Source of the DNA: an uncultured Candidatus Saccharibacteria bacterium
GTDB taxonomy: Bacteria > Patescibacteriota > Minisyncoccia > 2-02-FULL-40-12 > GWA2-44-9
Reading direction: 5' to 3'
Length of the DNA: 64,000 nucleotides
Assembly: GCA_964436165.1 (NCBI GenBank)
Contig: CAYTBY010000001.1
Span: 6,777-70,776 of the forward strand
A model generated the notes under the pieces. It was not told the origin of the DNA, made no database searches, and was given only the letters and a program-made list of their open reading frames with translations. Each line of letters starts with the position of its first letter. Within the stretch, counting starts at the first letter, position 1. The position numbers and the translations under genes were made by a program. This document shows, piece after piece, positions 7,809 through 49,636 of the stretch.

Positions 7809-9956
7809 TTAGTGATGGCCGGCAATTTCTTGGTGCGGGTTTTTATTGCCGTTATAGAGATAGGCACCTCGTCTATTGGAATACCAAACCATTTTCTGGT
7901 ACCAATCTTCCCATGTCGGCCACGTTTGAGATCTGCGGTCGATTGTGAATTCTTGAGGTTCATGAGCTAAAGGAATTTTTTGACCCACTAAAACCGATCT
8001 ATAAATACCCCAGGTATTGTAAGAAAGGCGGATACTTATATCTTCTGCCTGAAAAGGTATTTTTAGCAAATGGCGGTTGAGATTAATTGATTCTTCAAGG
8101 ATTTCGATCGGAACTTCAGAGTTTGACATCGCTAGATATCTCAAGAGCTGTCCGGCTTCTTTGTAAAAATCTTCGAGTTTACCTTCCCGGCACAGCTTAA
8201 TCAGGATATGTTCATCGGGCATCCAGTAGATTTTCAGCCACTCTTCCGAATATATGAATTCACCCTGCTTGCCTGCTTGAATGTCCCGGCCAGTTTGAGA
8301 GAAGAATCTGTTAATTTCTGAGAGTACCGGGAAATTGCCGTATTTTGAGAACTGATCAAAGCTGAAAAGTTCCAAGATCTGCCGATAACTAAAGCCATAA
8401 ACTTCGTGGAGGATAATTATGGGAATTTGAAGGAGTTTGCTGAAATAAAATAAGTTTACAGTCCAGCAAAGGATATATGTCTTAACCCAATCTTCGGGCG
8501 GCATAGTGTTGGTTCCAATGACGAATTCTTGTAATTCATCAATTCCGGTATCGGAGTCATTTTTACTGCCGTGAGCATTTATAATTTTTGTTTTTACCGT
8601 TTTGAATCCGTAGCGTTCCTGATATTCCCAATCCGCCATCTCGGTATTGCAAAGGATGGAAAGAATGTTGAACTGAATCCGATTATGCTGGCCGTTAGTA
8701 ATTAATGTTGCAATTCCGTCAAAAAAGGTATCGAATGTTTCCTCGGGCATGCCGGGGATCAGGTCGGTCATGGTAAAAATTCTTTGGGCAGCTAATTCTT
8801 TTTGAATTTCATAATATTGTTCCAGCTTCATGTTATCGCGTCTCACGGCTTTAAGGGTCGGAGGATTAAGTGATTGCTGTGACATTACGGTAGCTTTGTT
8901 GAGGCCGGCTCTTTCCAGGGCTTTTAGGGCTCTAATTGTGTGGGCTTTAGGATTTTTAGAATTCTGGGTTGAGACAGCTTCGGGATAGCCGTATTTTACT
9001 TTCGATTCGGCAAAGAATTCTGCAATTTGCTCGTCTCTTTCTTTGATGCCCCAGTTAGCATCGCAAATAAACCAGTAGGGAACTTTATGCTGTCCGCACC
9101 ACATGATGTCGTTGTATATTTGTGTCATTGGAAATTCGCTCACACGATCTTCTGTCGCTCCGCCCCAATCGCAATATGTGCATGAGAAAGGACAGCCCCG
9201 GTTAGTTTCGTACATTGTGATAAAAACCTGATCCGGATTCTCTTCGATCAACTTATCAAAAACCCCAGTTGTAAAAGGAGATGGTACTTCGGCTAATTCA
9301 TTGTTTTTCATCCGCTCGAGTTTGTTATTGTAACAGAAATTCCCATTTGCATCAGTATAGCTGATTGAAGGAATCAGTCTTTTATTATAGCATCCGTCGA
9401 TTGCCATTTGTTCAAGAATCTTTGTGAATACTCTTTCGCCCTCGCCGTGAACGCAAATATCTATTTCCGGATGAGCCCGATGATAATCAGGGGTAAAATT
9501 TATTCGCTGACGTTTTTGTTCTTCTGCCGTCAGCTCGGTTGTCCTGTTGAGGCGGAATTGCTTCTTACTGTCCGGAACTTGCGGTCCTCCAAAAACAAGA
9601 ATTCCATTCGGATTCCTTTTTTTATATTCCTGCCCCAAGACTAAGGAGTGCTGTTCTCCCCAGGTGTAATTTCCTACGCCAAGTATGTCGCATTCACTTA
9701 ATTTTTCACATATCTCATCAATCTCTCTCCGGTTCTTCGGGAACTTGTAAATTATTTCTTTGAATTCAAGATCGTCGGGATATGGAAAGTGCCGTTTCGC
9801 GTATGCCTGGATTAAACCAGCGGCAAAGGGAAAATAATATTGTCCGGAAAAAGACGTATTTAACTGTATTTGGCCGATCCTTATTTGCCCGTTAGGTTTC
9901 GGCACAATTCTAGGGGGATTTTCGGTCACCGTTTTGAGAGGAATTATAGATCCCAT
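7809..9956 (-). CDS. B12-binding-domain radical SAM enzyme (715 aa, paralog 1)
   Basis: CPFSCTYC has the CxxxCxxC radical SAM cluster motif. The N-terminal region is B12-binding-like. A C-terminal extension of about 250 aa is shared with 16508..18580. Confidence 0.75.
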   Translation of the reverse strand: MGSIIPLKTVTENPPRIVPKPNGQIRIGQIQLNTSFSGQYYFPFAAGLIQAYAKRHFPYPDDLEFKEIIYKFPKNRREIDEICEKLSECDILGVGNYTWGEQHSLVLGQEYKKRNPNGILVFGGPQVPDSKKQFRLNRTTELTAEEQKRQRINFTPDYHRAHPEIDICVHGEGERVFTKILEQMAIDGCYNKRLIPSISYTDANGNFCYNNKLERMKNNELAEVPSPFTTGVFDKLIEENPDQVFITMYETNRGCPFSCTYCDWGGATEDRVSEFPMTQIYNDIMWCGQHKVPYWFICDANWGIKERDEQIAEFFAESKVKYGYPEAVSTQNSKNPKAHTIRALKALERAGLNKATVMSQQSLNPPTLKAVRRDNMKLEQYYEIQKELAAQRIFTMTDLIPGMPEETFDTFFDGIATLITNGQHNRIQFNILSILCNTEMADWEYQERYGFKTVKTKIINAHGSKNDSDTGIDELQEFVIGTNTMPPEDWVKTYILCWTVNLFYFSKLLQIPIIILHEVYGFSYRQILELFSFDQFSKYGNFPVLSEINRFFSQTGRDIQAGKQGEFIYSEEWLKIYWMPDEHILIKLCREGKLEDFYKEAGQLLRYLAMSNSEVPIEILEESINLNRHLLKIPFQAEDISIRLSYNTWGIYRSVLVGQKIPLAHEPQEFTIDRRSQTWPTWEDWYQKMVWYSNRRGAYLYNGNKNPHQEIAGHH

Positions 9957-16306: not shown

Positions 16307-16470
16307 AAGTCAAATTAGGACTTACGCGCTTGGGCTTTAAGAGCCCCAAAGCCAGCAAGCCCTAAAGGGTTTGGCCAATTTCTTCGTTAAAATCTCCGCT
16401 TAATCCTCGCCATACTTCTAGTATGGCTCGGCTTAATGCTCGATTTTGCCTCGAACTTGGCCAAACGCGT
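16307..16470. mobile_element. MITE-like structured repeat, copy A. The TA-flanked terminal inverted repeat is GGACTTACGCG...CGCGTAAGTCC. The interior is divergent.
   Basis: Termini are identical to the copies at 20930..21142 and 49451..49632. Intergenic. Contains internal palindromes, for example CCATACT-tct-AGTATGG. Confidence 0.45.
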
Positions 16471-16507: not shown

Positions 16508-18580
16508 TTAAAAATGTCCGGCGATTTGAACAACGGCCTTACTGCCGTAAAGATAGGCACTTCTTTTACTGCCATACCAGACAACAAATCGGCACCAATC
16601 TTCCCAAGAATTCCATTGATCGGTATTGTAATCGATTGTAATCACCGATCCCCGTTTTTCCAACTGGATTGGTTCAGATCTAACCGCTGCTTTATAAAAT
16701 TCCCAAATATTATATGTTAGCGGCACTTCACGGTTACCGGTACGGAAAGGAAGTTTGAGCATATGTTCATTAAGTTCCACGGCTTCTCTTATCGCATCCC
16801 GATATTCACTCTTACCGTATCTGTCTAATAAAGATTCCAAGGCGCGATATGCTTCTTGGTAGAATGCAGAAAGATTCCCGTTAGTCGCGAGGTCTATTAG
16901 CATATATTCATCGGAGGGCCACCACATGTCAAGCCATTGGCTTGAATGGCAGAACTCTTCACCGCCCAGCTGAATTGACTGCGCTTTCTCAATAAAGAAC
17001 TGGTGAATTTTGTTAAGAATAGGGAAGTCAGCAGGTTGGCCAAACTGTCCTTCGGAAAAAAGCTCAATGAGTTTACTGTAACTTGCGCCGGTAAGCTCAT
17101 GGGTTAGGACCATCGGAATTTGAAATACTTTGTCAAAATGTAAAAATGCTGCGGTCCAGCTGAATGCGCGGACACGGACCCAATCTTCGCGCGGCATGGA
17201 TTTAGTGGTAATAACCATTTCTTGGTATTCAGGAACATCGTTTTCAATCTCTTTCCGGTTACCATGAATGTTAATTGTGCGTGCTTCAACCGTCTCCATG
17301 CCGAACTTTTCCCGATAGCTGGGATCAGCCATTTCAGCATTGGGTAAAATGGTTAAAATATAGAATAAAATTCTATCATGTAATCCGTTTCTGATGAGTT
17401 GATCTACGCCGTTGGTAAATGAGTCGTATGTTTCTCCCGGTAATCCGAGGACGATATCGGTAAAAGATGACACGCCATCGAGTTTCATTCTCTGCTGAAT
17501 TTCCTGATATGAGTCAAGACTGATGTTGTCCCGCTTGATATCTCTAAGAGTTCCAGGATCCATTGATTGCATTGAGAGCGAGGCTCCGGCAGCAAGTCCG
17601 GCTTCAGCAAAAATTTTCTGTACTTCATAAGAACGATCGGTTGCATTTTTCGTGTTTGAAACGGTAATTGAAGTCGGATAGCCGGTTCGTTTTCGAGTTT
17701 CAGCGCAGTATCTGGCTATATCAATATCTCGGGGAAGAATTCCTAAGTTTGCGTCAGCTAAGAAAATAAATTCAACTTTGTGATCTGCGAACCAATCCAT
17801 TTCTCTATATACTCGTTCCATCTCCCATTTATAAACCTTGGATGCTATCGCGGAACCCCAATCGCAAAATGTGCATGAAAATGGACAACCGCGATTTGTT
17901 TCCCAAACAGTAATCCATTTGATGTCGGGATTAGCCTTGATTATAGGTTCAAAAGTGCCCTCAAGGTATGGTGAAGGTAGTTCGTCAAGCTCTTTAAGAC
18001 GGGCGATTCTTTCGGTCTGAACAATGTATCTATCCTTATCTAAATAACTGATTGACGGAATCTTTCCCCAGTCCCCATATATATTTTCCAGGAGCAGTGA
18101 AAAAGGTCTTTCGCCCTCACCATGGCAAGCGATATCAATATAAGAGTTATCTCGTAAGTAGGCCTCTGTTCTTGCTAATGCGGGATCGCTTGAGTTTGGT
18201 TGATTTTTTTTCAAACTGCTAATCGTAATCGGAAGCTGTTTATTTTGTATGTGTGATTTATATTTATCCGGCACATGGGGCCCGCCTACCACAATAACAA
18301 TGTTCGGCTTTCTTGCCTTTAGCTCTTTGGCTATTGCAAGAGATAACTGATTATTCCAGACATAAAGACTGAAGCATGCGATATTGGAAGATATTAATTT
18401 TTTGACAGCTGAATCTACCGATTCTCGCGTAAAAATCGGAGAAAGGAATTGAAACCTGTCAATATTGGGAAGATTTTTACGCGCGTATGCTTCCAGAAGC
18501 CCAACGGAATACGGCAAATAGCTTGCTCCGGAAAAACCGGCGTTTATTTGGCATAAACCGACGGTAATTTTTTGATTCAT
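16508..18580 (-). CDS. B12-binding-domain radical SAM enzyme (690 aa, paralog 2)
   Basis: CPFSCTFC motif. Colinear with 7809..9956 from the N-terminus to the C-terminal ...WYGSKRSAYLYG. Confidence 0.75.
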   Translation of the reverse strand: MNQKITVGLCQINAGFSGASYLPYSVGLLEAYARKNLPNIDRFQFLSPIFTRESVDSAVKKLISSNIACFSLYVWNNQLSLAIAKELKARKPNIVIVVGGPHVPDKYKSHIQNKQLPITISSLKKNQPNSSDPALARTEAYLRDNSYIDIACHGEGERPFSLLLENIYGDWGKIPSISYLDKDRYIVQTERIARLKELDELPSPYLEGTFEPIIKANPDIKWITVWETNRGCPFSCTFCDWGSAIASKVYKWEMERVYREMDWFADHKVEFIFLADANLGILPRDIDIARYCAETRKRTGYPTSITVSNTKNATDRSYEVQKIFAEAGLAAGASLSMQSMDPGTLRDIKRDNISLDSYQEIQQRMKLDGVSSFTDIVLGLPGETYDSFTNGVDQLIRNGLHDRILFYILTILPNAEMADPSYREKFGMETVEARTINIHGNRKEIENDVPEYQEMVITTKSMPREDWVRVRAFSWTAAFLHFDKVFQIPMVLTHELTGASYSKLIELFSEGQFGQPADFPILNKIHQFFIEKAQSIQLGGEEFCHSSQWLDMWWPSDEYMLIDLATNGNLSAFYQEAYRALESLLDRYGKSEYRDAIREAVELNEHMLKLPFRTGNREVPLTYNIWEFYKAAVRSEPIQLEKRGSVITIDYNTDQWNSWEDWCRFVVWYGSKRSAYLYGSKAVVQIAGHF

Positions 18581-20929: not shown

Positions 20930-21142
20930 TAGGACTTACGCGTTTGCCCAAGATTGAGGCAAAATGCTTAAGTTTTTATGAGACGTACTAGGAGTACGAC
21001 GAGGAAAAACTTAAGTATTTTAACGACCGCGTGCCGCCTTAGCTTTAGCGGTGGCGCAAAAGATTGGGCAAACCTTTATGGCTTGAGCCACGTAAAGCCC
21101 TACTGATTTCGGGCTTCGTGGCTCAAGCGCGTAAGTCCTATA
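20930..21142. mobile_element. MITE-like structured repeat, copy B (about 213 bp)
   Basis: TA-GGACTTACGCG...CGCGTAAGTCC-TA termini. Interior nearly identical to copy C, plus about 30 extra bp. Confidence 0.5.
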
Positions 21143-21147
21143 TCAGA

Positions 21148-28931: not shown

Positions 28932-28955
28932 ATCCCGCTTGTGGCGGGTTTTAAT
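28932..28955. terminator. Bidirectional terminator
   Basis: CCCGC-ttgtg-GCGGG followed by TTTT. Confidence 0.45.
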
Positions 28956-29538
28956 GTTTGTGCTCAATATATGAAGCGCCTTTTCTGTCTCTATCTGATA
29001 AAATCGGATCAGTGGTTGGCCAGCTGATATTAAATCTCGGGTCGTTCCATTTAACTACATTTTGGATTTCAGGGCCTGAATAATATTGGGATTGATTATA
29101 ATGGAAAAGGATCTGATCGCTTAGAGCCAGGTGGCCGTTACAGTGCCTGGGCGGGACTAATATTTGTAGGCCATTCTCGGCCGATAAAATAAATGACTCC
29201 CATTTGCCGAAGTGTTCCGAAGCCGGATTATAATTCAGGACTACTAAGTAAAATTCTCCCAAAAGGCAAGTTATCAATTTCCAGGTTCTAGAATCGCCGT
29301 GCAGTCCGCGTAGGGCATTTTTTATTGAAAAAGAAGCAGTTTGTTCGCCATCCTCGAAGTCTATAGTGATTCCATTGGCGAAGTAGACTCTTTTGCTATA
29401 AAGTTCCGCATAGTAGCCACGATGATCTTTGGTTACTTTTCTTTTTATTTTTAATACTCCTGGTAGAGTAGTCTCTTGAACTGTAATGTTTTTAGCTAAT
29501 TCCTCATCATTCGGTCCAAGCTGGTATTTATTAACCAC
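28951..29538 (-). CDS. RmlC-like cupin, NDP-4-keto-6-deoxy-sugar 3,5-epimerase family
   Basis: The conserved RGLH motif is present, followed by ...KLITCLLGEFYLVVLNY. Cupin-sized (195 aa). Equivalent to DdahB/MlghB-type epimerases in 6-deoxyheptose pathways. Confidence 0.6.
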   Translation of the reverse strand: MVNKYQLGPNDEELAKNITVQETTLPGVLKIKRKVTKDHRGYYAELYSKRVYFANGITIDFEDGEQTASFSIKNALRGLHGDSRTWKLITCLLGEFYLVVLNYNPASEHFGKWESFILSAENGLQILVPPRHCNGHLALSDQILFHYNQSQYYSGPEIQNVVKWNDPRFNISWPTTDPILSDRDRKGASYIEHKH

Positions 29539-29627: not shown

Positions 29628-30611
29628 TCACATGTTGTAATAAATCACCTGGCTGCCCTGATTCTCAAATTTAAATGGAACATGAAGAAGTCTTTTTAAT
29701 TTTTCTTTGATCCGAGGTTGAATTTCGGGCGGGGCAAAAAATAATATAAATCCTCCTCCTCCAGCCCCCAACAACTTACCGCCAAGAGCGCCAGCTTTGA
29801 TGGCCGTGTCGTAAATTGCATCAATTCTGGGATTGCTTATTTTACTGGACAATTTTTTCTTATATTCCCAGCTTGTTTTTAGAAGTTTGCCAAAATCTTC
29901 AATGGGCTTTTCATCTTTAATAATTGAAAAACCTTCGCTAGCTATGGCGGTCATGATTTTTAGTTCTTCGTTGGTCTTTTTTATGTTTTTTATCTGTATT
30001 TTAGCGATCTCTGAAGCGTTGCGAGACAAGCCGGTAAAAAATAGCATACAATGGTCCTGAAGCAGGTTCAGGTGTTCTGGACGCATTATTATCGGTTGAA
30101 TGGAAATATGATGTGAGCCGCCGAAATCTATTTTATTAAAACCGCCGAAAGCTGCTGCTGTCTGGTCTTGCGAGCCGACATTTTCTTTGATCATATTCTG
30201 CTCAATGTGAATAGCTTCAAGCGCCAATTCTTTCTTGCTTTTCATTATGCCCTTTAGGCCATACAGGGCATTTATAAGTCCAACCGTAAATGACGAGCTA
30301 GAGCCTAGGCCTGATCTGGCCGGCAGATCGCCGTCATGATGGATTTCTAGTCCGTGGTCTATATTAATGAATCGGAGACATTCTCTGACCGAAGGGTGGT
30401 CAATTTTATTTATATCTTTGACATTCTCTGATTGAGAATAAACAATACGGTGTTTGTATTTAAAAAACGGCGGCAAAGGACGGCAAGTTATGTAGCAGTA
30501 TTTATCTATGGTCGTAGATAAAACAGTCCCGCCGTTCTCTTTGTACCAGCCGGGGTAATCGGTTCCTCCGCCGAAAAACGATATTCTAAAAGGTGTTCTG
30601 GTGATAATCAT
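29628..30611 (-). CDS. GHMP kinase, D-glycero-D-manno-heptose 7-phosphate kinase (HddA)-like
   Basis: GHMP ATP motif LPARSGLGSSSSF. N-terminus MIITRTPFRISFFGGGTDYP is typical of HddA and fucokinase. Confidence 0.7.
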   Translation of the reverse strand: MIITRTPFRISFFGGGTDYPGWYKENGGTVLSTTIDKYCYITCRPLPPFFKYKHRIVYSQSENVKDINKIDHPSVRECLRFINIDHGLEIHHDGDLPARSGLGSSSSFTVGLINALYGLKGIMKSKKELALEAIHIEQNMIKENVGSQDQTAAAFGGFNKIDFGGSHHISIQPIIMRPEHLNLLQDHCMLFFTGLSRNASEIAKIQIKNIKKTNEELKIMTAIASEGFSIIKDEKPIEDFGKLLKTSWEYKKKLSSKISNPRIDAIYDTAIKAGALGGKLLGAGGGGFILFFAPPEIQPRIKEKLKRLLHVPFKFENQGSQVIYYNM

Positions 30612-30665: not shown

Positions 30666-32639
30666 CTAATTCTCTAAATTCCTTGTATTTAATAGCCAAG
30701 CATATCCTCGCCAGCGGTCTTTTTTTGTGATTTCATGTAAAATCAAATCTCGGAAACCGGTTACTTCGCTTTCCACTGGCCAAATATTGCTAGTTCCCAT
30801 AGTTTTAAATTTAGCCGTGGCTATTTTCTCCATATCCCTTGTTTCCAGTAATTTATTTAGGACAGGGTCCTTGGTATAATCTCCGCCTTCGATTGCTTCC
30901 ATCTCCGTGTTCATATAAAGCGATTTACTGCTTGTACAAGGAATCACTATCCATCCGTTTTTAACATCAGCTATGCTGTTAATATAGTGCACAATATAGG
31001 GCGGCGCCATATCTTTGGGGGGCAGATAATCTGATTTTCCTATGCCATGAATTGCTTCTATGAAAGATTTATTATAGTTGGTGTTGTAAGTGTAAAATTC
31101 TTTTATTCCAAGGCGATCCAATGTGTTTATTAAGTTAGTCACGCTCATTCTTGCTGGATAAACATCTGAAAAAAATTTCCATAAATTCCAAACAAGAGCG
31201 ACCAAAATCAGGACTATAAAAATTGGGACACTCTTATCATAGAAAAATAATTGAATTAAATACGCACCACTACCGATAGCCAAAAAAATACCCACCAGTC
31301 CCGGAGAATATGTTCTGGAAAGCTGGGGAGCCTTGGTTATTTCTGCCCAAATAACAGGTGATAAGGAAAACAACAAAATTAAAACCATGCCCACTTCATT
31401 GAAAATTAAATTACCTTGCAAGAAAAAGGGAGAGACAATTAGGCCAATGGCAGAGGCTGTGAATATTATAGTATGAACGGGGACCATCCTAAAAAATACT
31501 TTTGGCAACCAAATTAACCCCGCTCCTTGGGTATAGCGAGTAACGGTCAAACCTTTCTTTGCGAAATAATCAACATATAGCCTGAAGTGTGATTTTTTTC
31601 TGATTTGAGTCTCCAGCAAAAATGCAAAGAAATATTTAAAACTTTTTTTAATATCCGGCAAGGTTAAAGTTAAAAAGCCGATAATGAATCCAATTAAAAT
31701 TAGTAAAAGATATCCCCAGCTGATCAGATTAACTAACAGTAATAAGGCGACAGTAGCATAAAGACCCCAGACAGTTAGTTGTTTGACTCTTTTGCGGGCA
31801 TGCTCTAAGTAGAAGTCTAAAGAAAATTTATCTCTCCCGCGGATTAGTTTATTTAGGAATCTTGGCGCTGTCTGATAGTATATTGAGGCAACTATTTTTT
31901 TATGGACAAGCCATAGAAAAACTATCGTTAAGCCGTATAAAATTAGCATTGTCATGTTAAATAATACCAATTGATTATTCCAGATTTGAGTATAAATATT
32001 ATCAAAAGCATTATTGGCGATTATTGTTCGGTGGCTTGAATAAAAAACAGCAGTAAAGAAGAGAGGTGTATATTTAATTGTTGAGGCAGAGGCAAATTGG
32101 GCAAAACAAAATATTATTCCTGCCCCGATTAGCCAGATGGCCGATTCCGGCCAACCGCCATTTGCTTGTTGTATAAACAGAACAGATAAGAGAAAAAGCA
32201 TGGTGGCTACATTGGCATGGCCTCCATAAAGAGCAACTTGCCAGCTCCATAGGGAAGTCAAGAATAGTATTCCTAGAAATAAAGCGATGGCAGGGTTCCA
32301 ATATCCAAGTGCGATAAGAAATATTAAAAATGAAGAAAAAGCGGTGGATATGCCGCCCAGGGCAGTATATGGATAATCTCCGGTTTTATTGCGAAATATT
32401 TTCTGAAAGACAGCCATCAGTATAATAGTCATATCTTTCATGCCAGTTTTTCCAAGGCCCATTTTATGTAAATCTGAAAACCATCGCCATCTTGAAGACG
32501 TCGCCGCGGCATAAGCCATTAGTTCGTTGTCGGTATTGGGACCATTGAATTGCACCCCGCGGACCAGGAACATAAAAATCAACGCTGCCATAGATGAAGA
32601 CAGGGCCATAAATATTATGCTGGTGATTGGATCTGACAT
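30666..32639 (-). CDS. Large polytopic membrane protein (657 aa) with a C-terminal soluble domain; putative glycan polymerase or GT-C-like transferase
   Basis: More than 12 hydrophobic segments. No diagnostic motif recognised. Confidence 0.3.
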   Translation of the reverse strand: MSDPITSIIFMALSSSMAALIFMFLVRGVQFNGPNTDNELMAYAAATSSRWRWFSDLHKMGLGKTGMKDMTIILMAVFQKIFRNKTGDYPYTALGGISTAFSSFLIFLIALGYWNPAIALFLGILFLTSLWSWQVALYGGHANVATMLFLLSVLFIQQANGGWPESAIWLIGAGIIFCFAQFASASTIKYTPLFFTAVFYSSHRTIIANNAFDNIYTQIWNNQLVLFNMTMLILYGLTIVFLWLVHKKIVASIYYQTAPRFLNKLIRGRDKFSLDFYLEHARKRVKQLTVWGLYATVALLLLVNLISWGYLLLILIGFIIGFLTLTLPDIKKSFKYFFAFLLETQIRKKSHFRLYVDYFAKKGLTVTRYTQGAGLIWLPKVFFRMVPVHTIIFTASAIGLIVSPFFLQGNLIFNEVGMVLILLFSLSPVIWAEITKAPQLSRTYSPGLVGIFLAIGSGAYLIQLFFYDKSVPIFIVLILVALVWNLWKFFSDVYPARMSVTNLINTLDRLGIKEFYTYNTNYNKSFIEAIHGIGKSDYLPPKDMAPPYIVHYINSIADVKNGWIVIPCTSSKSLYMNTEMEAIEGGDYTKDPVLNKLLETRDMEKIATAKFKTMGTSNIWPVESEVTGFRDLILHEITKKDRWRGYAWLLNTRNLEN

Positions 32640-34443: not shown

Positions 34444-34689
34444 TTACCAGTGTTTTATTCGTGATTTTATTTTTTTCTTCAGGTCTGAGTAGGCTCTAAC
34501 TGCCCTTCTTTCCATGCGGGGAGAGACTAATCTTAGCAGTTCTTTCCCCAGGACTCTATATTGACCGCCGACCTTATTAGCTCTAATCAAACCCTTTTTC
34601 AGGAGTCGTTTCAGGGTGCTGTTTGATATTTTTAGAAGTAACCTGGCTTCGTTAGTTGTGTAAACTTCGTTCGGATTTATATCTGGCAT
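34444..34689 (-). CDS. Small helix-turn-helix DNA-binding protein (excisionase/MerR-like HTH)
   Basis: LLKISNSTLKRLLKKGLIRANKVGGQYRV is an HTH pattern. 81 aa. Sits just downstream of the tandem repeat array. Confidence 0.45.
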   Translation of the reverse strand: MPDINPNEVYTTNEARLLLKISNSTLKRLLKKGLIRANKVGGQYRVLGKELLRLVSPRMERRAVRAYSDLKKKIKSRIKHW

Positions 34690-34741: not shown

Positions 34742-35323
34742 TTAGACATGATTTTTGAAAGCATTATCTATCAGTGAACATAACTCATGAATCATCATTA
34801 TGTGGGCTTCCTGAATATGCTGGGTATTATGAGAGGGTACAACCAGCTTAAGGTCGCATAAATTACTCATTTGTCCGCCGTCTTTACCCAATAACCCGAC
34901 TGTCATCAACCCATTCTTTTTCGCGATGTTCAGGGCATTAATTAAATTAAGGGAATTACCGCTTGTGGAAATGCCGACGAATATATCGCCGTATTTGCCA
35001 AGACCCTCGATTTGTCTCGAAAAAACATAGTCATAGCCGAAATCATTGCCGATAGCGGTAATTATGGATGAATTCGTTGTTAGGGCGATGGCTGGCAGGC
35101 CTTTGCGTTTATGGATAAATTGTCCAGCCAGCTCTGCGGCAAAATGCTGGGTATCGGCCGCTGAACCGCCGTTGCCGGCGATTAAAATCTTTCGGCCCAT
35201 CTTTAGGGCAGTTATCATCCGGCTGGCAATTTTCTCAATTTCAAGTAAAAATTCCTTGTCTGATGCGATTTTAAGCTTAGTTTCTATTGATTCGAGAATT
35301 GATTTTTTAATATCCCTTATCAT
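34742..35323 (-). CDS. gmhA: D-sedoheptulose 7-phosphate isomerase (SIS domain)
   Basis: [24 protein letters not shown], and the HELC motif of the GmhA family. Confidence 0.8.
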
Positions 35324-36290
35324 TTAAATACCGGTCAATTGTTTTTTTGAGGCCATTTTCAAAATCAGTAGTGGCTTTAAAGCCGAATTCTTTTTTGGCT
35401 AAAGTTGCGTCAACCATGCGCCTTGGTTGGCCATCGGGTTTTGATTTATCCCAGTGGATTTCACCCCTAAAATTCATAAGTCTGCAAATTATCTTTACGA
35501 GATCGCGTATTTTTATTTCTCTGTTTGCTCCTAAGTTAACCGGATCTGGTTTGTCGTATTTTTCTGTGGCTAAAATTATGCCTTCAGCGCAATCGTCCAC
35601 ATAGAGAAATTCTCTGGAAGCTGTGCCTGTTCCCCAGACGTCTATGTATTTCTTTTCCGCTTTTTGGGCATCAGCCACTTTTTTTATAAGTGCCGGAATG
35701 ACATGGGAAGTTTCAGGATTGAAATTATCACCTGGGCCGTAGAGATTTACCGGCAGAAGGTAAATCGCATTGAAATTGTACTGCTGGCGATAGGCTTGAG
35801 CTTGGACGAGGAGCATTTTTTTAGCAAGTCCGTAAGGGGCATTTGTTTCCTCCGGATAGCCGTGCCAGAGAGTTGTTTCGGCAAAGGGGACTGACGTGTG
35901 CTTGGGGTAGGCACAAATGGTTCCAATAGCGACGAATTTTTTTACTCCAGCTTGGCGGGCCGTCTCCATTAATTGAGAACCCATCATTAGATTGTCGTAA
36001 AACATTTGACCGGGAATCTTTTGGTTATATCCTATTCCGCCAACAACAGCGGCAAGATGAATTATAATGTCCTGGTTTTTTACAACTTTTTGACAGTTTT
36101 CCCACTTAGTCAGGTCATAATCCTTAGAGCGGGGGACTGATATATTTTTTTTGGGCACTCCCCGTTCCAACAATTTTTTCACCACAAAAGAGCCAAGAAA
36201 CCCGGCTCCACCGGTAACGAGAATTTTTCTAGTGCTGAGATTTACCAAAGCACTAGCCCTGAGCTTTGTCGAAGGGTTTGCGGAGTTCAT
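35307..36290 (-). CDS. GDP-L-fucose synthase family 3,5-epimerase/4-reductase (Fcl/WcaG-like); could act on a GDP-4-keto-6-deoxy-hexose or -heptose
   Basis: Motifs [29 protein letters not shown] and KPDGQPR, colinear with E. coli Fcl from memory. Confidence 0.75.
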
Positions 36291-36298
36291 TTAAATTT

Positions 36299-39200
36299 TT
36301 ATTTTTTCTCGTTTATGTCTGCCCAGACCATTATTTTAACGAGATCTTTAAATTTTGTCTTTGGTTGCCAACCGAGCATTTTTTTAGCTTTTGAGGAGTC
36401 GGCAATGAGATGATGGACTTCAGCCGGGCGGTAATAGCGGGGGTCTATCTCGACATATTTTTTGTAGTCGCCAAGGCCGGCTTCTTGAAAGGCAAGTTGT
36501 ACGAACTCGCGAACGGTATGGGTTTCTCCGGTGCCGATGACATAGTCATCCGGCTTTGGCTGCTGCATCATCAGCCACATAGCTTCGCAAAACTCCGGGG
36601 CATAACCCCAGTCGCGTCTAGCGTCAAGATTACCGAGGTATAATTTTTTATCCAGACCGGCTTTTATTCTGGCAATTCCTCTTGTAATTTTTCTGGTAAC
36701 AAATGTCTCACCGCGGCGGGGGCTGTTATGTATCCAAGTAAGACCTATGCCCGCAGAGAAAGTATTGCTCTCGGTTTCTAAGTCAAATAGCCAGCCGGTA
36801 TAGCCATGATTTTTTATTAGTTTAATCTCTGTCAGTTCTCTTTGCAGGTGTTTGCCTTTTCCGGTTTTTTGGTTCGAATTTATATTAAGGTGGTAATAAA
36901 GATAATTTTTTCTAAATTCCGGATGTAGGGTCATTCTTAGTTCTAGTGTATTTTTAACTAAATACCACAAACTTGCTGCTAACACGGAAGAGTTTGTGGT
37001 AAATGATTTAAATTCTGTCTTTTGATGACCGCCCCTAAGTCCATCACAGGAGTTATAGCCACTTAGAAACGCCAGGACCACCTCGTGGTTAGAATTTAAG
37101 ATGCGCTTAGGAACTCTTTTGAATAATTTTTGAGTGTAAATTTCTTTCCATATAAAACGCAAGTAATCCGCATTTCCTCTTAGCTCTGTCGATTTAATTT
37201 TATTAGCAGGGTTAAATCCGCTTGGATGATCATCTTCCCGACTACTTCCTCCGCTAACCTTTTGCCACAAATCAGCAAACCTCCTTCTTAAATTATCAGT
37301 ATTATTTATAAATCGTCCTTTCCCGTCACTGCTTATATAGCCATCAGCAACTAACATTCCCAATAATTCTGCCTCCTCTAATGTAGTAATTGTAATTCTT
37401 TGTAAGGGCGGAAGAGTTTTTAATTCTAAATTATCCCCTGGCTTTAAATTGCCTGTTTTTATTTCAGTAGCTCCTTTTAAAAATGATATATGATCTTCTG
37501 TGGCCTCATAATATCCTCCTCTACATATTACTCGCTTAATTTTTTTGTCTTTTGATGAGCCGTATTCATTCCAGGTGGCAGTCAAGGTTTTAATTTTTGA
37601 CCACTTATCTCCATCCCAAATTTCTACACCCCCGTTGCCCATAGTAATATACTTTTTTCCTTTTGTTGGATCCTCTCGATGGGGCACTATCTCTTCAATA
37701 GGAAGAATATCAATTAAGCCACCCCTTCTGATTATTACTGGTGTTTGCGCCGTGATACATTCGTGATTGAACAAAATTCCGTTAACGGCAAAAATTCCAT
37801 AGGCTTCGCGGTAGAGATTGGTCATGTTATAGGCGAAAAGCTTTGCCGCTCCGTATGGGCTCTGGGGATTGAAGGGTGTTTTCTCATTTTGGGGCGGGGG
37901 AGACGAACCGAACATTTCGGAACTTGAGGCTTGGTAAAATTTAACTTTTTTACTCGCCAAGCCGGAGCCTTTGGCGTAGCGCTGGCCCATATCTTCTTGG
38001 AAATCTCTTATTGCTTCAAGAACCCGCAGAGCTCCATTGCCGGTGATATCCATTGTATATTCTGGAATCTCAAAAGAAACCTTTACGTGGGAATTATGAA
38101 CTACTATATTGCCGACGCCTACAGCGAAATTATGTACTTCAGCCACGGTTATATCATAAACCCAGCCGTTATAATCTATCCATTCTAATTTTTTACTATT
38201 TCCTTGATTTGGCTGGTATGTAGTGCATTCTCTAAAATGCCAAACCGAATGATAGCCTGTGTTTTTATTATTTTCCTCGTTAACGGTATAGTCGTAGTTC
38301 AACAGCGTGAACAACAAACTTAATTGACATGCAAGTTTATATGAATTAGTTGTATACCTAAAGCCGGTACCAGGATTTATACATCCATCGCCTTCGCACA
38401 TTTTTTCCCAAATTTCTTCTAAAAATTTAGCCTCAATCTGAGAGAACCAATAGGGAAGCTGTTTTGTTTTAGAGTTTTCTCCCAGTAATTTTCGAAGTAG
38501 ATTATACAATGCCCTTGATTTTATTTGTAGCTCCCAAACATCTTTATAATTGTCTTTTTTATGCTTGACATACCAACAACTGCCAACATAAAATTTTTTA
38601 AGATCTGATTCAAGGCTTTTAAGCCACTCTTTATTATTTGAGCTTATACCGACATACCAATTTTTATTTGCTTTATTAAAACTTGTATGACCTTCTGCAA
38701 TAAATGCCCCTGTAAATCTACAGAAAGATTTTAACGTATCTCCTTTAACTTTTCTTAAAACCTTGCTGATTAAGCCGTGCTCATCTAGCCAGAAGTATTT
38801 ATTATCAAATTTATAAACCCCGTCTAGTTTTAAAGAAATAGATTTTCTATACCTATTCGGTTTATAATTGAGTTTTCTGATGTTTAATAACCATGGATTT
38901 TCAGATGGACGACAAATTTTTCCAGTTACATCAATTACAGAATGATTAGGCGTTACAGTTACTGATCCAAATTTTTGAGATAATTTTGCGACTTTGCCGC
39001 TCCACCTATGTCTAGATATTTGTTTTATTGGGAAAAACGTTCCCATTCCATTCCACATTCCCAAAGCCCTAAGCTGAGTATTGTTTGATAAATCAATAAC
39101 TTCAACATTAGTATCATCCATTTTCTCTACTCTAACTTTACCCCTCTTTTTTACCTGTTCGCTCCACAAGTCTTCTAATGTTCTATATTCAAGTTTTTGT

Positions 39201-39517
39201 GCAGACAAAATCGGACATAGACATTCACCTGTTACTGATTGCGCCCCCAAATTATATATTTCATCGGGTTTAACTTGATAAATAATTTTTCTGATAGTTC
39301 CTGAATCTGCCAAATCACCGTGATGCAAAAACAACCTCTTGTTTCTTTCGTGAGGATCCTGGTATAAGTGGTTGAGTCGGGAAGTATTAAAAGTCGAGGC
39401 TCTTCTGACTACTCCATGAACAAAATAGCCCTTCTTCAAGAGAAGCTCGGTAAGGTAGGAACCGTCTTGTCCTGTACAGCCAAAAACCAAAGCTATTTTA
39501 TTTTTGTTTTTTACCAT
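36299..39517 (-). CDS. gmd: GDP-mannose 4,6-dehydratase homolog interrupted by two inteins
   Basis: Exteins: [12 protein letters not shown]...YNLGAQ / [12 protein letters not shown]...NGILFNHE / [18 protein letters not shown]. They sum to about 345 aa, colinear with E. coli Gmd. The start at 39517 ([13 protein letters not shown]) is preferred. The ORF is open to 39568. Confidence 0.8.
   Translation of the reverse strand: [1072 protein letters not shown]
36725..37759 (-). mobile_element. Intein 2 (about 345 aa) in Gmd, between FNHE and SPRRGETF. Starts with Cys, ends ...WIHN, with +1 Ser. Contains LAGLIDADG homing-endonuclease motifs ([24 protein letters not shown]).
   Basis: The [21 protein letters not shown] block of Gmd is split exactly at HE|SP. 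Canonical C1 and HN intein termini. Confidence 0.75.
38093..39238 (-). mobile_element. Intein 1 (about 382 aa) in Gmd, between NLGAQ and SHVKVSF. Ends ...VVHN with +1 Ser. Contains LAGLIDADG-like motifs ([17 protein letters not shown]).
   Basis: The insertion splits the contiguous LGAMSHVAVSFE-type extein motif. C-terminal HN. The first intein residue is ambiguous (Ser111 or Cys116). Confidence 0.65.
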
Positions 39518-39575
39518 AAGATTTAGGATAAATATTATCTGTTCAACTGACAATATTGACGCCCACACTCATCTG

Positions 39576-39710: not shown

Positions 39711-40190
39711 ATGGGCCAAGTAATAGCTGTGGGTGGTTTACAAACTGGCGGTGGGAATCTTATAAAACAGACACCCAAAGAAGAATTGTTGATTGAATTG
39801 CGTAGAATTAAGATGAATAATCTTTCCTCTGCCCAAGTCCAAAAGTTGTCTGATAATAAAAAAGTTTTTTGCAGATCTTTCAAGGAGCTTTGCTATTCCA
39901 GATTCGGGTTATCTCCTGATCAGTTAATACAGTTTAAGGATGAGCATTTAAAAGAACTGGATAATCTGCTGTTCGGAAGAGCCAAATGGGCGCGCTTACC
40001 CCCGTATTTAATTTTTTTAATCCCAGTATTTGGACAAGTTGCTTTTTTCGTTGCACGCAATGGAGTATTAGGGATTGGCAATCATGGACCATATTATGTT
40101 GCCCGTAAATTTCTTAAAAAAACTCTTGGTAAAGATTATTTTCCGATTGATGAGCTAAGGAAATATTTAGAGATGGAGGCCAAGCCATGA
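39711..40190 (+). CDS. Hypothetical single-pass membrane protein, family P member 1 (N-terminal LIKQT motif; C-terminal KKTLGKDYFPIDELRKYLE tail)
   Basis: Shares a central ELCYSRFGLSPDQL...LKELDNLLFGRAK block and a C-terminal tail motif with 40852..41433, 42533..43048, 44635..45165 and 45954..46367. Confidence 0.4.
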   Translation: MGQVIAVGGLQTGGGNLIKQTPKEELLIELRRIKMNNLSSAQVQKLSDNKKVFCRSFKELCYSRFGLSPDQLIQFKDEHLKELDNLLFGRAKWARLPPYLIFLIPVFGQVAFFVARNGVLGIGNHGPYYVARKFLKKTLGKDYFPIDELRKYLEMEAKP

Positions 40191-41479: not shown

Positions 41480-42514
41480 TTAGTTAGCTTGAGCGGAAAC
41501 GGAAACATCAATTATTTCTGCTTCGGCTGGATTTAACATTTTTGTTTGAACCGAAGCTGATTCCAGGGCTAAAGTCCTCTTTCTGTCCTCGCTTGCCAAG
41601 AGCTTCAGTTTCTCGTCAATTCTCCGACTCCCTGTTTCTAAGAGCTTCTGCATATCGGCCGAGACGATAGAGTGGTCGCGGCATTTTCTGACCGCATCCA
41701 GGGCGTTATCAATGGCCCTGATAGAAATATCGCATGTTGTCACCAGAGCATCTCTTCCCGAATACATTATATCGCCTGCCTCAACTAGGGTCTTGGCCGT
41801 ATCTCTAATCGCGGCAAATGGCTTATAAACATTGACAAAGTTATAGTATTCGCCAGCCGCGGCTTCACAAACTTCAAGACTGGCGTAACAGGCCTTAACC
41901 CCGAATATTACCAGGGCTCTACCCTGAGAGAGGTTGTCCTCAAGCTGTTGAAGAAGTCTTTTTCTGCGGTTTTCTTTTTCTTCCTCGCCAAGAACATTGA
42001 ACTTATCATCAAGAAGTTCTGCTATTTCTTCGTCTACTTCAATATCGGCCTGTCTGAATATATATTCATGGAGCTCTCGGGCATTCAAATTTTTTTCTCG
42101 GGCTTCTTCAATATCTGCTTTTTGGGCTTCAATCTCTAGCCCTTTTTCTCTGATGGCATGAGTCAGGTTCTTGGTTGCCATCTGAACGTTGGTTACTCTG
42201 GTTCGATATTCTCCTTCGGCGGCCTCAAGGGCATCTAGTTCTTCGGCTATCATCTTGGTTAGGGGAGCAGGCAGTTTGTGATAAAAACTCTGAGGAATTA
42301 TCAGGTGCAGTCCTCTGGCCAGCCAGCTCTTGGTCCGGTTGGCCGGCAGTTTAAGGATCTGCCTGATGTAATCGTTCAATTCTACAAATTCATCCCGGCT
42401 TCTTTTGACCTCTCTTATTGATTCCTGCAAGGCCCGGTCAGATGCTGACTTAAGGGTTCTTTCCCTGGCTAGTGACGAATTTCTTTTTCCCGAACTGACG
42501 AGTTCTAGCGGCAT
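41480..42514 (-). CDS. Hypothetical coiled-coil-rich protein (344 aa)
   Basis: Extensive heptad-like charged and Leu patterning. No enzymatic motif. Confidence 0.3.
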   Translation of the reverse strand: MPLELVSSGKRNSSLARERTLKSASDRALQESIREVKRSRDEFVELNDYIRQILKLPANRTKSWLARGLHLIIPQSFYHKLPAPLTKMIAEELDALEAAEGEYRTRVTNVQMATKNLTHAIREKGLEIEAQKADIEEAREKNLNARELHEYIFRQADIEVDEEIAELLDDKFNVLGEEEKENRRKRLLQQLEDNLSQGRALVIFGVKACYASLEVCEAAAGEYYNFVNVYKPFAAIRDTAKTLVEAGDIMYSGRDALVTTCDISIRAIDNALDAVRKCRDHSIVSADMQKLLETGSRRIDEKLKLLASEDRKRTLALESASVQTKMLNPAEAEIIDVSVSAQAN

Positions 42515-49478: not shown

Positions 49479-49632
49479 GGCAAAATGCTTAAGTTTTTAT
49501 GAGACGTACTAGGAGTACGGCGAGTAAAAACTTAAGCATTTTAACGAAAAGATTGGGCAAACCCTTGCGGCTTGAGCTACGCTAAGCCCTATAGATTTTG
49601 GGCTTCGTAGCTCAAGCGCGTAAGTCCTATAT
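49451..49632. mobile_element. MITE-like structured repeat, copy C (182 bp)
   Basis: TA|GGACTTACGCG...CGCGTAAGTCC|TA termini. Three nested stem-loops, including a perfect 17-bp inverted repeat AAAATGCTTAAGTTTTT/AAAAACTTAAGCATTTT and a 12-bp inverted repeat GCTTGAGCTACG/CGTAGCTCAAGC. Confidence 0.55.
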
Positions 49633-49636
49633 ATTT

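What the first reader, a model, noticed from the sequence alone, without database searches (positions are those of the whole stretch)
36299..39568. GDP-mannose 4,6-dehydratase homolog split by two inteins with LAGLIDADG-like endonuclease motifs
The 1089-aa ORF resolves into three extein blocks that are contiguous in intein-free Gmd: ...YNLGAQ | SHVKVSFE... and ...NGILFNHE | [13 protein letters not shown].... They sum to about 345 aa. Between them lie two insertions of about 382 aa and 345 aa. Each ends in His-Asn followed by Ser. The second begins with Cys and carries two clear LAGLIDADG motifs. Both insertion points fall inside highly conserved active-site-proximal motifs, which is typical intein homing behaviour. 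Inteins in nucleotide-sugar dehydratases are rare, and two in one gene is notable. This also makes expression of the whole downstream heptose/6-deoxy-sugar operon dependent on protein splicing.
Basis: partly seen in the sequence, partly recalled or inferred. Interest (0 to 1): 0.8.

Follow-up and report, generated by a model that had tools for sequence, protein, structure and literature searches.

The report
Two homing inteins inside gmd
A sugar-nucleotide enzyme gene (GDP-mannose 4,6-dehydratase) of an uncultured candidate-phyla-radiation bacterium is interrupted in frame by two self-splicing, endonuclease-carrying protein introns (inteins); this is a clean, real example of a known kind of selfish element, and many other metagenomic copies of this gene carry inteins at the same two sites.

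Summary
ORF 36299-39568 (-) encodes a 123-kDa precursor. Its three extein blocks align without a gap to solved GDP-mannose 4,6-dehydratases and to an intein-free, syntenic allele in Ca. Yanofskybacteria.

Two insertions break the enzyme exactly at GAQ|SHV and NHE|SPRRG.
- Insertion 1 is 382 aa (Ser1...His-Asn|Ser+1).
- Insertion 2 is 345 aa (Cys1...His-Asn|Ser+1).

Both have intein blocks A, B, F and G and two LAGLIDADG motifs with the acidic residues intact. Both give confident AlphaFold models (pLDDT 93) whose best PDB matches are intein homing endonucleases (PI-PkoII, TliVMA, PI-PfuI, PI-SceI).

Intein 1 is under purifying selection (dN/dS 0.11). Its DNA is much closer to that of a relative (86% identity) than the flanking gmd/fcl DNA is (71-77%), which points to recent lateral homing. 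Relatives with 83-85% identical exteins carry no intein, only a, only b, or both.

It is not rare in metagenomes. All 120 listed Gmd homologues carry at least one intein, about 16 have both sites filled, and a few have three. A gmd intein is already published for Thermosynechococcus.

Verdict: a new member of a known kind, of moderate-to-low interest.

The parts
36299..39568 (-). Full ORF of the Gmd precursor (1089 codons from GTG). The probable real start is the ATG at 39517, giving a 1072-aa, 123-kDa precursor.
   Evidence: ORF list. TIGR01472 gmd scores 462 bits against a cutoff of 415, and PF16363 gives E=2e-124 in 3 stretches. Start codons and masses. The identical protein is P0001, present in NCBI and ENA assemblies.
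39239..39517 (-). N-extein (aa 18-110), ending ...YNLGAQ. It contains the GxxGxxG NADP motif (39461-39481) and the RR motif (39395-39409).
   Evidence: Aligns to 1n7g residues 26-117. Motif coordinates.
38093..39238 (-). Intein 1 (Gmd site a): 382 aa, 44.5 kDa, Ser1...His-Asn followed by Ser+1.
- Block A: 39206-39238
- NX-type Arg-His: 39008-39019
- Block B (TPNH): 38936-38962
- LAGLIDADG motif 1 (FTGAFIAEG): 38690-38716
- LAGLIDADG motif 2 ([10 protein letters not shown]): 38384-38413
- Block F: 38120-38164
- Block G: 38090-38113
   Evidence: Pfam LAGLIDADG_3 E=4.6e-11, Intein_splicing E=3e-7, TIGR01443 above cutoff. PDB sequence hits to PI-PkoII and the Pho RadA intein. AF2 pLDDT 92.6, and Foldseek finds PI-PkoII at 4e-20 and TliVMA at 1e-19. 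S1, R76, H77, T96-H99, D362, H381 and N382 are invariant in 41/41 allelic inteins. dN/dS is 0.11.
37760..38092 (-). Middle extein (aa 493-603), SHVKVSFE...NGILFNHE. It holds the catalytic Ser-Ser-Glu (37907-37927) and YxxxK (37841-37855).
   Evidence: Aligns to 1n7g residues 117-216. Motif coordinates.
36725..37759 (-). Intein 2 (Gmd site b): 345 aa, 39.3 kDa, Cys1...His-Asn followed by Ser+1.
- Block A: 37730-37759
- Block B (TEDH): 37484-37510
- LAGLIDADG motif 1 (LLGMLVADG): 37340-37366
- LAGLIDADG motif 2 ([10 protein letters not shown]): 37040-37069
- Block F: 36752-36793
- Block G: 36722-36745
   Evidence: Pfam LAGLIDADG_3 E=9e-6. TIGR01445 intein_Nterm covers residues 604-693 of the whole protein at 24.2 bits, just under its 24.5-bit cutoff. 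PDB sequence hit to the TliVMA intein. AF2 pLDDT 93.4, and Foldseek finds TliVMA at 1.7e-22 and PI-PfuI at 4.5e-17. H90, G140, G240, D326 and N345 are invariant, and D139/E and D239 are conserved, in 43 allelic inteins.
36302..36724 (-). C-extein (aa 949-1089), starting [13 protein letters not shown]. The stop codon is at 36299-36301.
   Evidence: Aligns to 1n7g residues 215-353. The second Arg of SPRRG is 35 residues after the catalytic Tyr, the same offset as the substrate-orienting Arg190 of BceN (PMC3584063).
35307..36290 (-). Downstream GDP-L-fucose-synthase-like epimerase/reductase. It consumes the Gmd product and is the pathway step that depends on spliced Gmd.
   Evidence: Best hit is NF047922 GDPFucSynFcl at 8e-82, below the equivalog cutoff. 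PF01370 hit.

Best explanation
The gene encodes a bona fide GDP-mannose 4,6-dehydratase interrupted by two independent class-1 'maxi' inteins. Each intein is a Hint splicing domain with a nested double-motif LAGLIDADG homing endonuclease.

After translation of the 123-kDa precursor, each intein is inferred to excise itself:
- Intein 1 would use oxyester chemistry: an N-O acyl shift at Ser111, attack by Ser493, cyclisation of Asn492, then an O-N shift. An Arg-His 'NX' dyad and the block-B His would assist.
- Intein 2 would use a thioester at Cys604, followed by attack by Ser949 and cyclisation of Asn948.

The three exteins are joined into a 345-aa, 39.5-kDa enzyme with an intact NADP motif, Ser/Glu/Tyr/Lys catalytic set and SPRRG substrate loop. 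Both insertions sit inside invariant core motifs, so the unspliced precursor should be inactive.

The free inteins (44.5 and 39.3 kDa) are inferred to act as site-specific endonucleases. They would cut intein-free gmd alleles at GAQ|SHV and NHE|SPRRG and spread by homing.

Shown here: the anatomy, the fold, conservation of catalytic residues, purifying selection, an empty allele, and a lateral-transfer signature for intein 1. Inferred: actual splicing and actual DNA cleavage.
For: - Exteins are contiguous against solved GMD structures and against a syntenic intein-free allele.
- The junction residues are canonical.
- Intein and LAGLIDADG family models hit both inserts, as do solved inteins.
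- Both AF2 models are confident, and the best structural matches are intein homing endonucleases.
- All splicing and endonuclease catalytic positions are invariant or near-invariant across 41 and 43 allelic inteins.
- Intein 1 has dN/dS 0.11, and its endonuclease part 0.08.
- Against L006, intein 1 DNA is 86% identical and 74% of conserved residues use identical codons (shuffle expectation 49%, 12 sd above). Flanking exteins and fcl are 71-77% and 43-51%.
- Relatives with 83-85% identical exteins show all occupancy states: none (L002), a only (P0002), b only (P0003, P0005), and both (the window).
- The two inteins are only distantly related to each other (28% identity over 112 aa), so they were acquired separately.
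- The R76-H77 dyad and E46 match the NX motif described for Ser1 inteins (PMC10189870).
Against: - There is no experimental evidence of splicing or DNA cleavage.
- Intein 2 lacks the block-F His (SNTF instead of HNF).
- Intein 2's Pfam Intein_splicing score is weak (E=0.1). As an isolated sequence it also falls below the NCBIfam cutoff (TIGR01445, 16.5 bits against 24.5).
- Synonymous sites of intein 2 are saturated against its nearest relative, so nothing can be said about recent mobility for it.
- The lateral-transfer signal for intein 1 rests on one pairwise comparison.
Confidence: 0.88

Rival explanations
1. The inteins are real and splice, but one or both endonuclease domains are no longer active. 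The elements would then be inherited only vertically and persist because imprecise deletion would destroy an essential motif.
For: Intein 2 is already saturated at synonymous sites against its closest relative, so there is no sign of recent transfer for it. Degeneration of the endonuclease is a normal phase of the homing cycle (established knowledge).
Against: The acidic residues of all four LAGLIDADG motifs are conserved (E182/D284 in intein 1, D139/D239 in intein 2). The endonuclease part of intein 1 has dN/dS 0.08. Intein 1 shows a lateral-transfer signature. Close relatives are polymorphic for presence or absence of both inteins.
Confidence: 0.25
2. The inteins work as conditional post-translational switches, for example sensitive to redox state, temperature or metal. 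They would gate Gmd activity, and therefore surface-glycan synthesis, rather than being purely selfish.
For: Both sit in catalytic-core motifs, so the precursor should be inactive. Two inteins in one protein with different nucleophile chemistry (Ser1 versus Cys1) resemble the M. smegmatis DnaB case, where two inteins respond differently to stress (abstract of PMC6195587). Intein 1 has Cys at positions 6 and 8, next to Ser1.
Against: Nothing in the sequence shows regulation. Close relatives function with zero or one intein, so the inteins are dispensable. Insertion in conserved motifs is equally expected from homing-site selection alone.
Confidence: 0.1
3. The gene is a dead, non-splicing pseudogene, or an assembly chimera.
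For: The sequence comes from metagenome-assembled contigs. No expression data exist.
Against: The ORF stays open over 1089 codons in AT-rich DNA (P about 1e-14 and 3e-13 for the two inserts). All catalytic residues of the exteins and inteins are intact. There is purifying selection. The same protein is on record from both NCBI and ENA, with a longest contig of 152,652 bp, and the ENA contig that was read is 108,771 bp. More than 100 independent proteins share this architecture.
Confidence: 0.03

Closest known systems
PI-PkoII / PI-TkoII (Thermococcus kodakarensis DNA polymerase intein 2, PDB 2cw7)
   Same: It is the best sequence and structure match of intein 1. It is a bifunctional Hint plus LAGLIDADG intein. 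It is cited as a functionally characterised cis-intein of the Ser1/Ser+1(Thr+1) group (PMC10189870). The R-H dyad aligns (ikqisRH / kaliRH).
   Different: The host is an archaeal family-B DNA polymerase. It is 537 aa long with extra domains. Structure-based identity is only 14%.
TliVMA / PhoVMA inteins (V-ATPase A subunit, PDB 7qss, 7qsu, 7qst) and PI-PfuI, PI-SceI
   Same: These are the best matches of intein 2. They are Cys1 inteins with a nested double LAGLIDADG endonuclease, and both LAGLIDADG helices align with conserved Asp.
   Different: The host proteins and insertion sites differ. Identity is 12-20%. Intein 2 is smaller, at 345 aa.
gmd intein of Thermosynechococcus (Front Microbiol 2022, PMC9403480)
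   Same: A full-length intein with a homing endonuclease domain, reported inside gmd (GDP-D-mannose dehydratase).
   Different: It is cyanobacterial and a single intein. I could not verify whether it occupies site a or site b.
Metagenomic Gmd proteins with inteins at sites a and b (e.g. P0010, P0011, P0015, P0018, P0020, P0022-P0024, P0026, P0027, P0037, P0079)
   Same: They have the same two insertion points, the same Ser1 family at site a, and homologous inteins at site b.
   Different: Overall identity to the window protein is only 34-46%. Several carry a Thr1 intein at site b instead of Cys1. None belongs to the window's close extein clade.
Mycobacterium smegmatis DnaB with two inteins (PMC6195587)
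   Same: One protein carries two inteins, which splice independently and at different rates (abstract).
   Different: The host is a replicative helicase, and conditional splicing was demonstrated experimentally there. Nothing of the kind is shown here.

Membership tests
Class 1 intein (Hint splicing domain) | Nucleophile (Cys/Ser/Thr) as the first intein residue | tested here: met
   Intein 1 starts with Ser111 and intein 2 with Cys604. Ser1 is present in 41/41 site-a alleles.
Class 1 intein (Hint splicing domain) | Block B Thr-x-x-His | tested here: met
   TPNH (intein 1 residues 96-99) is invariant. In TEDH (intein 2 residues 87-90) the His is invariant and Thr is present in 41/43.
Class 1 intein (Hint splicing domain) | C-terminal (His-)Asn followed by Cys/Ser/Thr at +1 (blocks F and G) | tested here: met
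   VVHN|S and WIHN|S. TIGR01443 scores 25.8 bits against a cutoff of 15.6 for intein 1. Block-F Asp is invariant in both families. The block-F His is absent in intein 2.
Class 1 intein (Hint splicing domain) | Hint (horseshoe beta) fold | tested here: met
   The AF2 models have pLDDT 92.6 and 93.4. Foldseek hits PI-PkoII, TliVMA, PI-PfuI, PI-SceI and the mini-inteins RadA, TFIIB and PolII.
Class 1 intein (Hint splicing domain) | Precise in-frame insertion, with exteins contiguous in intein-free homologues | tested here: met
   Shown by the 1n7g alignment and by the Ca. Yanofskybacteria empty allele at DNA and protein level.
Class 1 intein (Hint splicing domain) | Demonstrated protein splicing | not testable with these tools
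   This needs expression followed by mass spectrometry or a western blot.
LAGLIDADG homing endonuclease (monomeric, two-motif) | Two LAGLIDADG helices, each ending in an acidic residue followed by Gly | tested here: met
   Intein 1 has ...IAEG and ...EGDG. Intein 2 has ...VADG and ...SCDG. PF14528 gives E=4.6e-11 and 9e-6. Conservation is shown.
LAGLIDADG homing endonuclease (monomeric, two-motif) | Pseudo-dimeric alpha-beta-beta-alpha-beta-beta-alpha fold | tested here: met
   Foldseek matches to I-SceI, I-DmoI, I-AniI and WhiA over about 185 columns.
LAGLIDADG homing endonuclease (monomeric, two-motif) | Site-specific cleavage of the intein-free allele | not testable with these tools
   There is indirect support only: the lateral-transfer signature of intein 1 and presence/absence polymorphism among close relatives.
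Ser1/Ser+1 oxyester inteins with NX motif (Pasch et al. 2023) | Ser at positions 1 and +1, and a conserved His preceded by Arg/Lys upstream of block B, paired with a Glu in a preceding strand | tested here: met
   Ser1/Ser+1. R76-H77 are invariant in 41/41 and E46 is present in 40/41. Both lie in predicted beta-strands. The motif definition comes from PMC10189870. Spatial proximity to Ser1 was not measured.
GDP-mannose 4,6-dehydratase (TIGR01472 / PF16363) | Equivalog model score above the curated cutoff | tested here: met
   462.3 bits against a cutoff of 415, even with both inteins in place.
GDP-mannose 4,6-dehydratase (TIGR01472 / PF16363) | GxxGxxG, GxxRR, Ser/Thr + Glu, YxxxK, and the substrate-orienting Arg | tested here: met
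   GCTGQDG, VVRRAS, SSSE, YGAAK and SPRRG are all present. The feature list comes from PMC3584063.
GDP-mannose 4,6-dehydratase (TIGR01472 / PF16363) | Substrate is GDP-mannose rather than GDP-heptose | not testable with these tools
   GmhA-like and HddA-like genes lie in the same cluster. The solved GDP-heptose dehydratase 7us5 is a far weaker match (1e-14) than GMDs are (1e-116).

The most novel reading that the evidence does not exclude
Gmd may be a large and essentially undescribed non-replicative niche for inteins in uncultured bacteria. It shows at least five insertion sites, up to three or four inteins per gene, and a Thr1 subfamily at site b. In this CPR genome the two still-mobile inteins, with different nucleophile chemistry (Ser1 oxyester and Cys1 thioester), might act as conditional post-translational gates on 6-deoxy-sugar supply for the cell envelope.
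Probability: 0.12. Interest if true: 0.6.

Novelty: new member of a known kind. Interest (0 to 1): 0.3.

Why it matters
The biology is textbook: inteins home into the most conserved motifs of conserved enzymes. The locus is nevertheless useful in three ways.
1. It is a clean natural set for studying the homing cycle. Close relatives have both sites empty, only a filled, only b filled, or both filled, and intein 1 shows a measurable lateral-transfer signature.
2. It offers a compact Ser1/Ser+1 intein with the recently described NX histidine motif. Such inteins are sought for cysteine-independent protein ligation.
3. It extends inteins to sugar-nucleotide metabolism in CPR bacteria, a host class and a lineage that the intein literature I could search barely mentions.

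Tried and rejected
- **Pfam Hint model.** PF14890 and the TIGR models hit instead.
- **Literature.** Searches for 'Ndse' plus intein (from my memory of an InBase entry for a Trichodesmium nucleotide-sugar epimerase) and for inteins plus 'candidate phyla radiation' returned nothing useful. The Novikova 2016 survey mentions only UDP-glucose/GDP-mannose dehydrogenase, not the dehydratase, and its supplements are not held. Hits in moumouvirus and Geobacillus papers were irrelevant.
- **Active-site contacts.** I tried to confirm the contacts of both sites from a human GMD paper and failed. For site b I used the BceN paper's feature list. Proximity of site a to the cofactor rests only on general SDR knowledge.
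- **Intein 2 mobility.** The dN/dS and lateral-transfer test against P0003 was uninformative because synonymous sites are saturated.
- **Organism names.** Cluster look-ups to name the organisms of NCBI-sourced homologues returned no names.
- **Intein duplication.** The idea that intein 2 is a duplicate of intein 1 is rejected. They share only 28% identity over the C-terminal 112 aa.
- **BLAST artefact.** The HSPs that begin at extein residue 79, inside the C-terminus of intein 1, come from a weak VYDITV..HNFAVG / EIYNLGAQ resemblance. They are not a duplication.
- **RNA genes.** Rfam and tRNA scans of the window found nothing.
Full report
**1. Observation**

The minus-strand ORF 36299-39568 is real and 1089 codons long. 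Upstream alternatives and homologue alignments place the likely start at the ATG at 39517 (M18, [13 protein letters not shown]...). The public copy of this protein, P0001, was called from a TTG five codons into the ORF.

phmmer against all PDB chains splits the protein into three blocks. These map onto consecutive residues of A. thaliana GMD (1n7g): query 21-111 to 26-117, 493-603 to 117-216, and 947-1086 to 215-353. The same pattern holds for ten other GMD structures.

The whole protein exceeds the curated cutoff of the NCBIfam gmd equivalog (462 bits against 415) despite about 727 foreign residues. The insertions are aa 111-492 (382 aa, window 38093-39238) and aa 604-948 (345 aa, window 36725-37759). 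The exteins from M18 sum to 345 aa and 39.5 kDa.

Given the base composition of the inserts, stop-free stretches of these lengths have probabilities of about 1e-14 and 3e-13. The inserts are also more AT-rich than the exteins: GC 0.34 and 0.37 against 0.38-0.47.

**2. An intein-free allele in the same genomic context**

A scan of one genome per species found a gmd in Ca. Yanofskybacteria (MGKI01000014.1, locus L002). It aligns to the in-silico spliced CDS as one HSP (positions 1-1028, 71.6% nt identity). The neighbours (fcl-like gene, HTH gene, ABC exporter) are syntenic.

At both junctions the empty allele reads straight through...[14 protein letters not shown]... and ...[15 protein letters not shown]....

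**3. The inserts are inteins with nested LAGLIDADG endonucleases**

Intein 1 starts with Ser and ends VVHN, followed by Ser. Intein 2 starts with Cys and ends WIHN, followed by Ser.

Family models:
- PF14528 (LAGLIDADG_3) hits both inserts, at E=4.6e-11 and 9e-6.
- PF14890 (Intein_splicing) hits intein 1 clearly and intein 2 weakly.
- TIGR01443 (intein C-terminus) passes its cutoff on intein 1.
- TIGR01445 (intein N-terminus) covers the start of intein 2, at 24.2 bits in the whole-protein scan against a 24.5-bit cutoff.

The closest solved sequences are PI-PkoII, the Pho RadA intein and the TFIIB mini-inteins for intein 1, and the TliVMA intein for intein 2. The alignments run through the LAGLIDADG helices and blocks F and G.

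I aligned each intein with about 40 allelic inteins from metagenomic Gmd proteins (A1 and A2) and predicted the structures. The models have pLDDT 92.6 and 93.4, and pTM 0.92 for both.

Foldseek against the PDB returns intein homing endonucleases as the top hits:
- Intein 1: PI-PkoII 4e-20, TliVMA 1e-19, PI-PfuI 7e-15, PI-SceI 7e-9.
- Intein 2: TliVMA 1.7e-22, PhoVMA 8e-19, PI-PfuI 4.5e-17.

These are followed by free-standing LAGLIDADG enzymes (I-SceI, I-DmoI) and mini-inteins.

Conservation across the allelic families marks exactly the catalytic positions.
- Site a: S1, R76, H77, T96-P-N-H99, D362, N370, F371, H381 and N382 are invariant in 41/41. E182-G183 and G283-D284-G285 (the two LAGLIDADG ends) are near-invariant.
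- Site b: H90, G140, G240, D326, T329 and N345 are invariant. T87, D139 (or E), D239 and H344 are near-invariant.

The two inteins share only 28% identity over 112 C-terminal residues. They are therefore separate acquisitions, not a duplication.

**4. Mechanism: shown and inferred**

Shown: all residues needed for the four-step class-1 pathway are present in both inteins. The ligated exteins retain GxxGxxG, GxxRR, Ser-Ser-Glu, YxxxK and SPRRG (feature list from PMC3584063).

Inferred: intein 1 uses oxyester chemistry (Ser111 and Ser493) and intein 2 starts from a thioester (Cys604).

Intein 1 belongs to the minority Ser1/Ser+1 group. Only about 10% of catalogued inteins have just Ser or Thr at positions 1 and +1 (PMC10189870). 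That paper defines an 'NX' motif specific to this group: a His invariably preceded by Arg or Lys, partnered with a Glu in a preceding strand. Intein 1 and all 40 allelic relatives have R76-H77, and E46 is present in 40/41. Both lie in predicted beta-strands. The same RH aligns in PI-PkoII.

Site b lies four residues before the second Arg of SPRRG. That Arg is at the same offset from the catalytic Tyr (+35) as the substrate- and cofactor-orienting Arg190 of BceN. Site a cuts the invariant NL(A/G)AQ|SHV motif at the end of a Rossmann strand. Its cofactor proximity rests on general knowledge of extended SDRs and was not tested here. An unspliced precursor is therefore expected to be inactive.

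**5. Evidence that the elements are alive and mobile**

I compared the window with the closest site-a relative, P0002 on contig L006.
- Intein 1 has dN/dS 0.11 overall and 0.08 in the endonuclease segment.
- Synonymous sites in the three exteins are saturated (pS 0.74-0.83), whereas pS in the intein is 0.43.
- Nucleotide identity is 86% in the intein, 71-77% in the exteins and 71% across the C-extein and the start of the downstream fcl gene.
- At conserved residues, 74% of codons are identical in the intein (shuffle expectation 49%, 12 sd above). In the exteins the figure is 43-51% (expectation 34-42%).
- The step in third-position identity coincides with the intein boundaries.

The simplest reading is that intein 1 moved laterally, by homing or conversion, after the two host genes diverged. 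This rests on one pair.

For intein 2 the nearest relative (P0003, 68% aa identity) is saturated, so the test is uninformative.

Independent support comes from relatives with 83-85% identical exteins, which show every occupancy state: none (L002), a only (P0002), b only (P0003, P0005), and both (this window). In addition, several site-a inteins are more similar to the window's intein (70-74%) than their exteins are to the window's exteins (60-65%).

**6. How unusual is it?**

It is not very unusual in sequence space. The homologue search returned 216 proteins with E <= 1e-10. All 120 listed carry at least one intein-sized insertion. By site, the counts are roughly:

| Occupancy | Number of proteins |
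|---|---|
| Site b only | about 58 |
| Site a only | about 39 |
| Sites a and b | 13, including this protein |
| Three inteins | three or four (P0016, P0019, P0039) |
| Further sites near extein residues 148, 174 and 245-250 | the remainder |

An exhaustive phmmer of intein 1 against 1.84 billion cluster representatives gave 519 hits at E <= 1e-3 and 33 at E <= 1e-30. The top hits are Gmd-sized proteins with the intein at residues about 84-107. A search with intein 2 alone found only Gmd hosts.

Named sources include Patescibacteria, Falkowbacteria, Deltaproteobacteria and Syntrophothermus. The literature I could search contains one explicit report, a full-length intein in gmd of Thermosynechococcus (PMC9403480). 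The large intein survey of 2016 does not list this host.

The finding is therefore a new member of a known kind. The double a+b arrangement recurs elsewhere, although not among the close relatives of this gene.

**7.

Protein splicing acts after translation. It cannot control expression of the downstream genes. It only controls whether the Fcl-like enzyme (35307-36290) receives its substrate.

The context is indeed a large glycan-synthesis island. It includes GmhA-like, HddA-like, RmlC-like and Fcl-like genes, aminotransferases, a carbamoyltransferase, radical-SAM proteins, a flippase, a Wzy-like ligase and an ABC exporter. Because of the heptose genes, the real substrate could be GDP-heptose. 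Sequence similarity favours a true GMD: 1e-116 against 1e-14 for the solved heptose dehydratase.

**8. Verdict**

This is a well-preserved pair of homing inteins in gmd of a CPR (Yanofskybacteria-like) bacterium. They are probably splicing-competent, and intein 1 at least was recently mobile.

Interest is moderate to low (0.3). The locus has practical value as a natural homing-cycle series and as a source of a Ser1/Ser+1 NX-motif intein.

Noticed in passing
Related proteins P0015, P0016, P0019, P0023, P0026, P0027, P0055, P0058, P0059, P0061, P0068, P0070, P0072, P0074, P0078, P0080, P0081, P0084, P0095, P0105, P0119, P0120 (not in the window): 22 of 69 Gmd site-b inteins begin with Thr instead of Cys (384-406 aa, ending HN|S). 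One sister sequence (P0071) has Ser at that position. This subfamily has a conserved His (SAYPHD) where the Cys1 alleles have TATWN, which recalls the NX histidine of oxyester inteins, although it is preceded by Pro rather than Arg or Lys. From memory, Thr1 is allowed by the class-1 definition but is very uncommon in nature. A further 16 site-b inteins end GN, SN or AN rather than HN.
   Followed up: partly
Related proteins P0016 (1519 aa), P0019 (1448 aa), P0039 (1661 aa), P0036, P0092, P0108: Gmd has further intein insertion points near extein residues 148, 174 and 245-250, and some genes carry three or four inteins. P0036 has a 173-aa mini-intein at about residue 174.
   Followed up: partly
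window 21040-21143 (+), 49530-49636 (+), partial 16365-16451; also L007:132-231: A roughly 100-nt intergenic repeat has a 24-bp perfect-like hairpin (GGCTTGAGCCACG..AAGCCC...GGGCTTCGTGGCTCAAGC). Its RNA minimum free energy is -40.5 kcal/mol (z = -4.5). It occurs two or three times in the glycan island and also upstream of gmd in a related genome. It has no Rfam match and is not present upstream of gmd in this window.
   Followed up: partly
P0157 (1461 aa), P0160 (792 aa) and neighbours: Some of the nearest non-Gmd relatives of intein 1 that were checked (28-32% identity) sit in proteins with phage portal and terminase-large-subunit domains. This hints that phages may shuttle this intein lineage.
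   Followed up: partly
window 34742-35323 (-), 29628-30611 (-), 28951-29538 (-): GmhA-like sedoheptulose-7-P isomerase, HddA-like heptose-7-P kinase and RmlC-like epimerase genes share the strand and cluster with gmd and fcl. The 'Gmd' might therefore serve a GDP-6-deoxy-heptose pathway rather than, or as well as, GDP-fucose.
   Followed up: no
window 34444-34689 (-): An 81-aa HTH_17 (excisionase/MerR-like) gene is wedged between gmhA and the ABC exporter. The start of the exporter ORF (ends at 34441) is only a few bases from its stop (34444). It is also conserved in the Yanofskybacteria locus.
   Followed up: no
window 30666-32639 (-) and 41480-42514 (-), 39711-40190 (+): ORFs of 657, 344 and 159 aa have no Pfam or NCBIfam match at all.
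   Followed up: no
window 7809-9956 (-) and 16508-18580 (-): Two unusually large (715 and 690 aa) radical-SAM proteins lie inside the sugar-modification island, next to DegT-type aminotransferases and a carbamoyltransferase.
   Followed up: no
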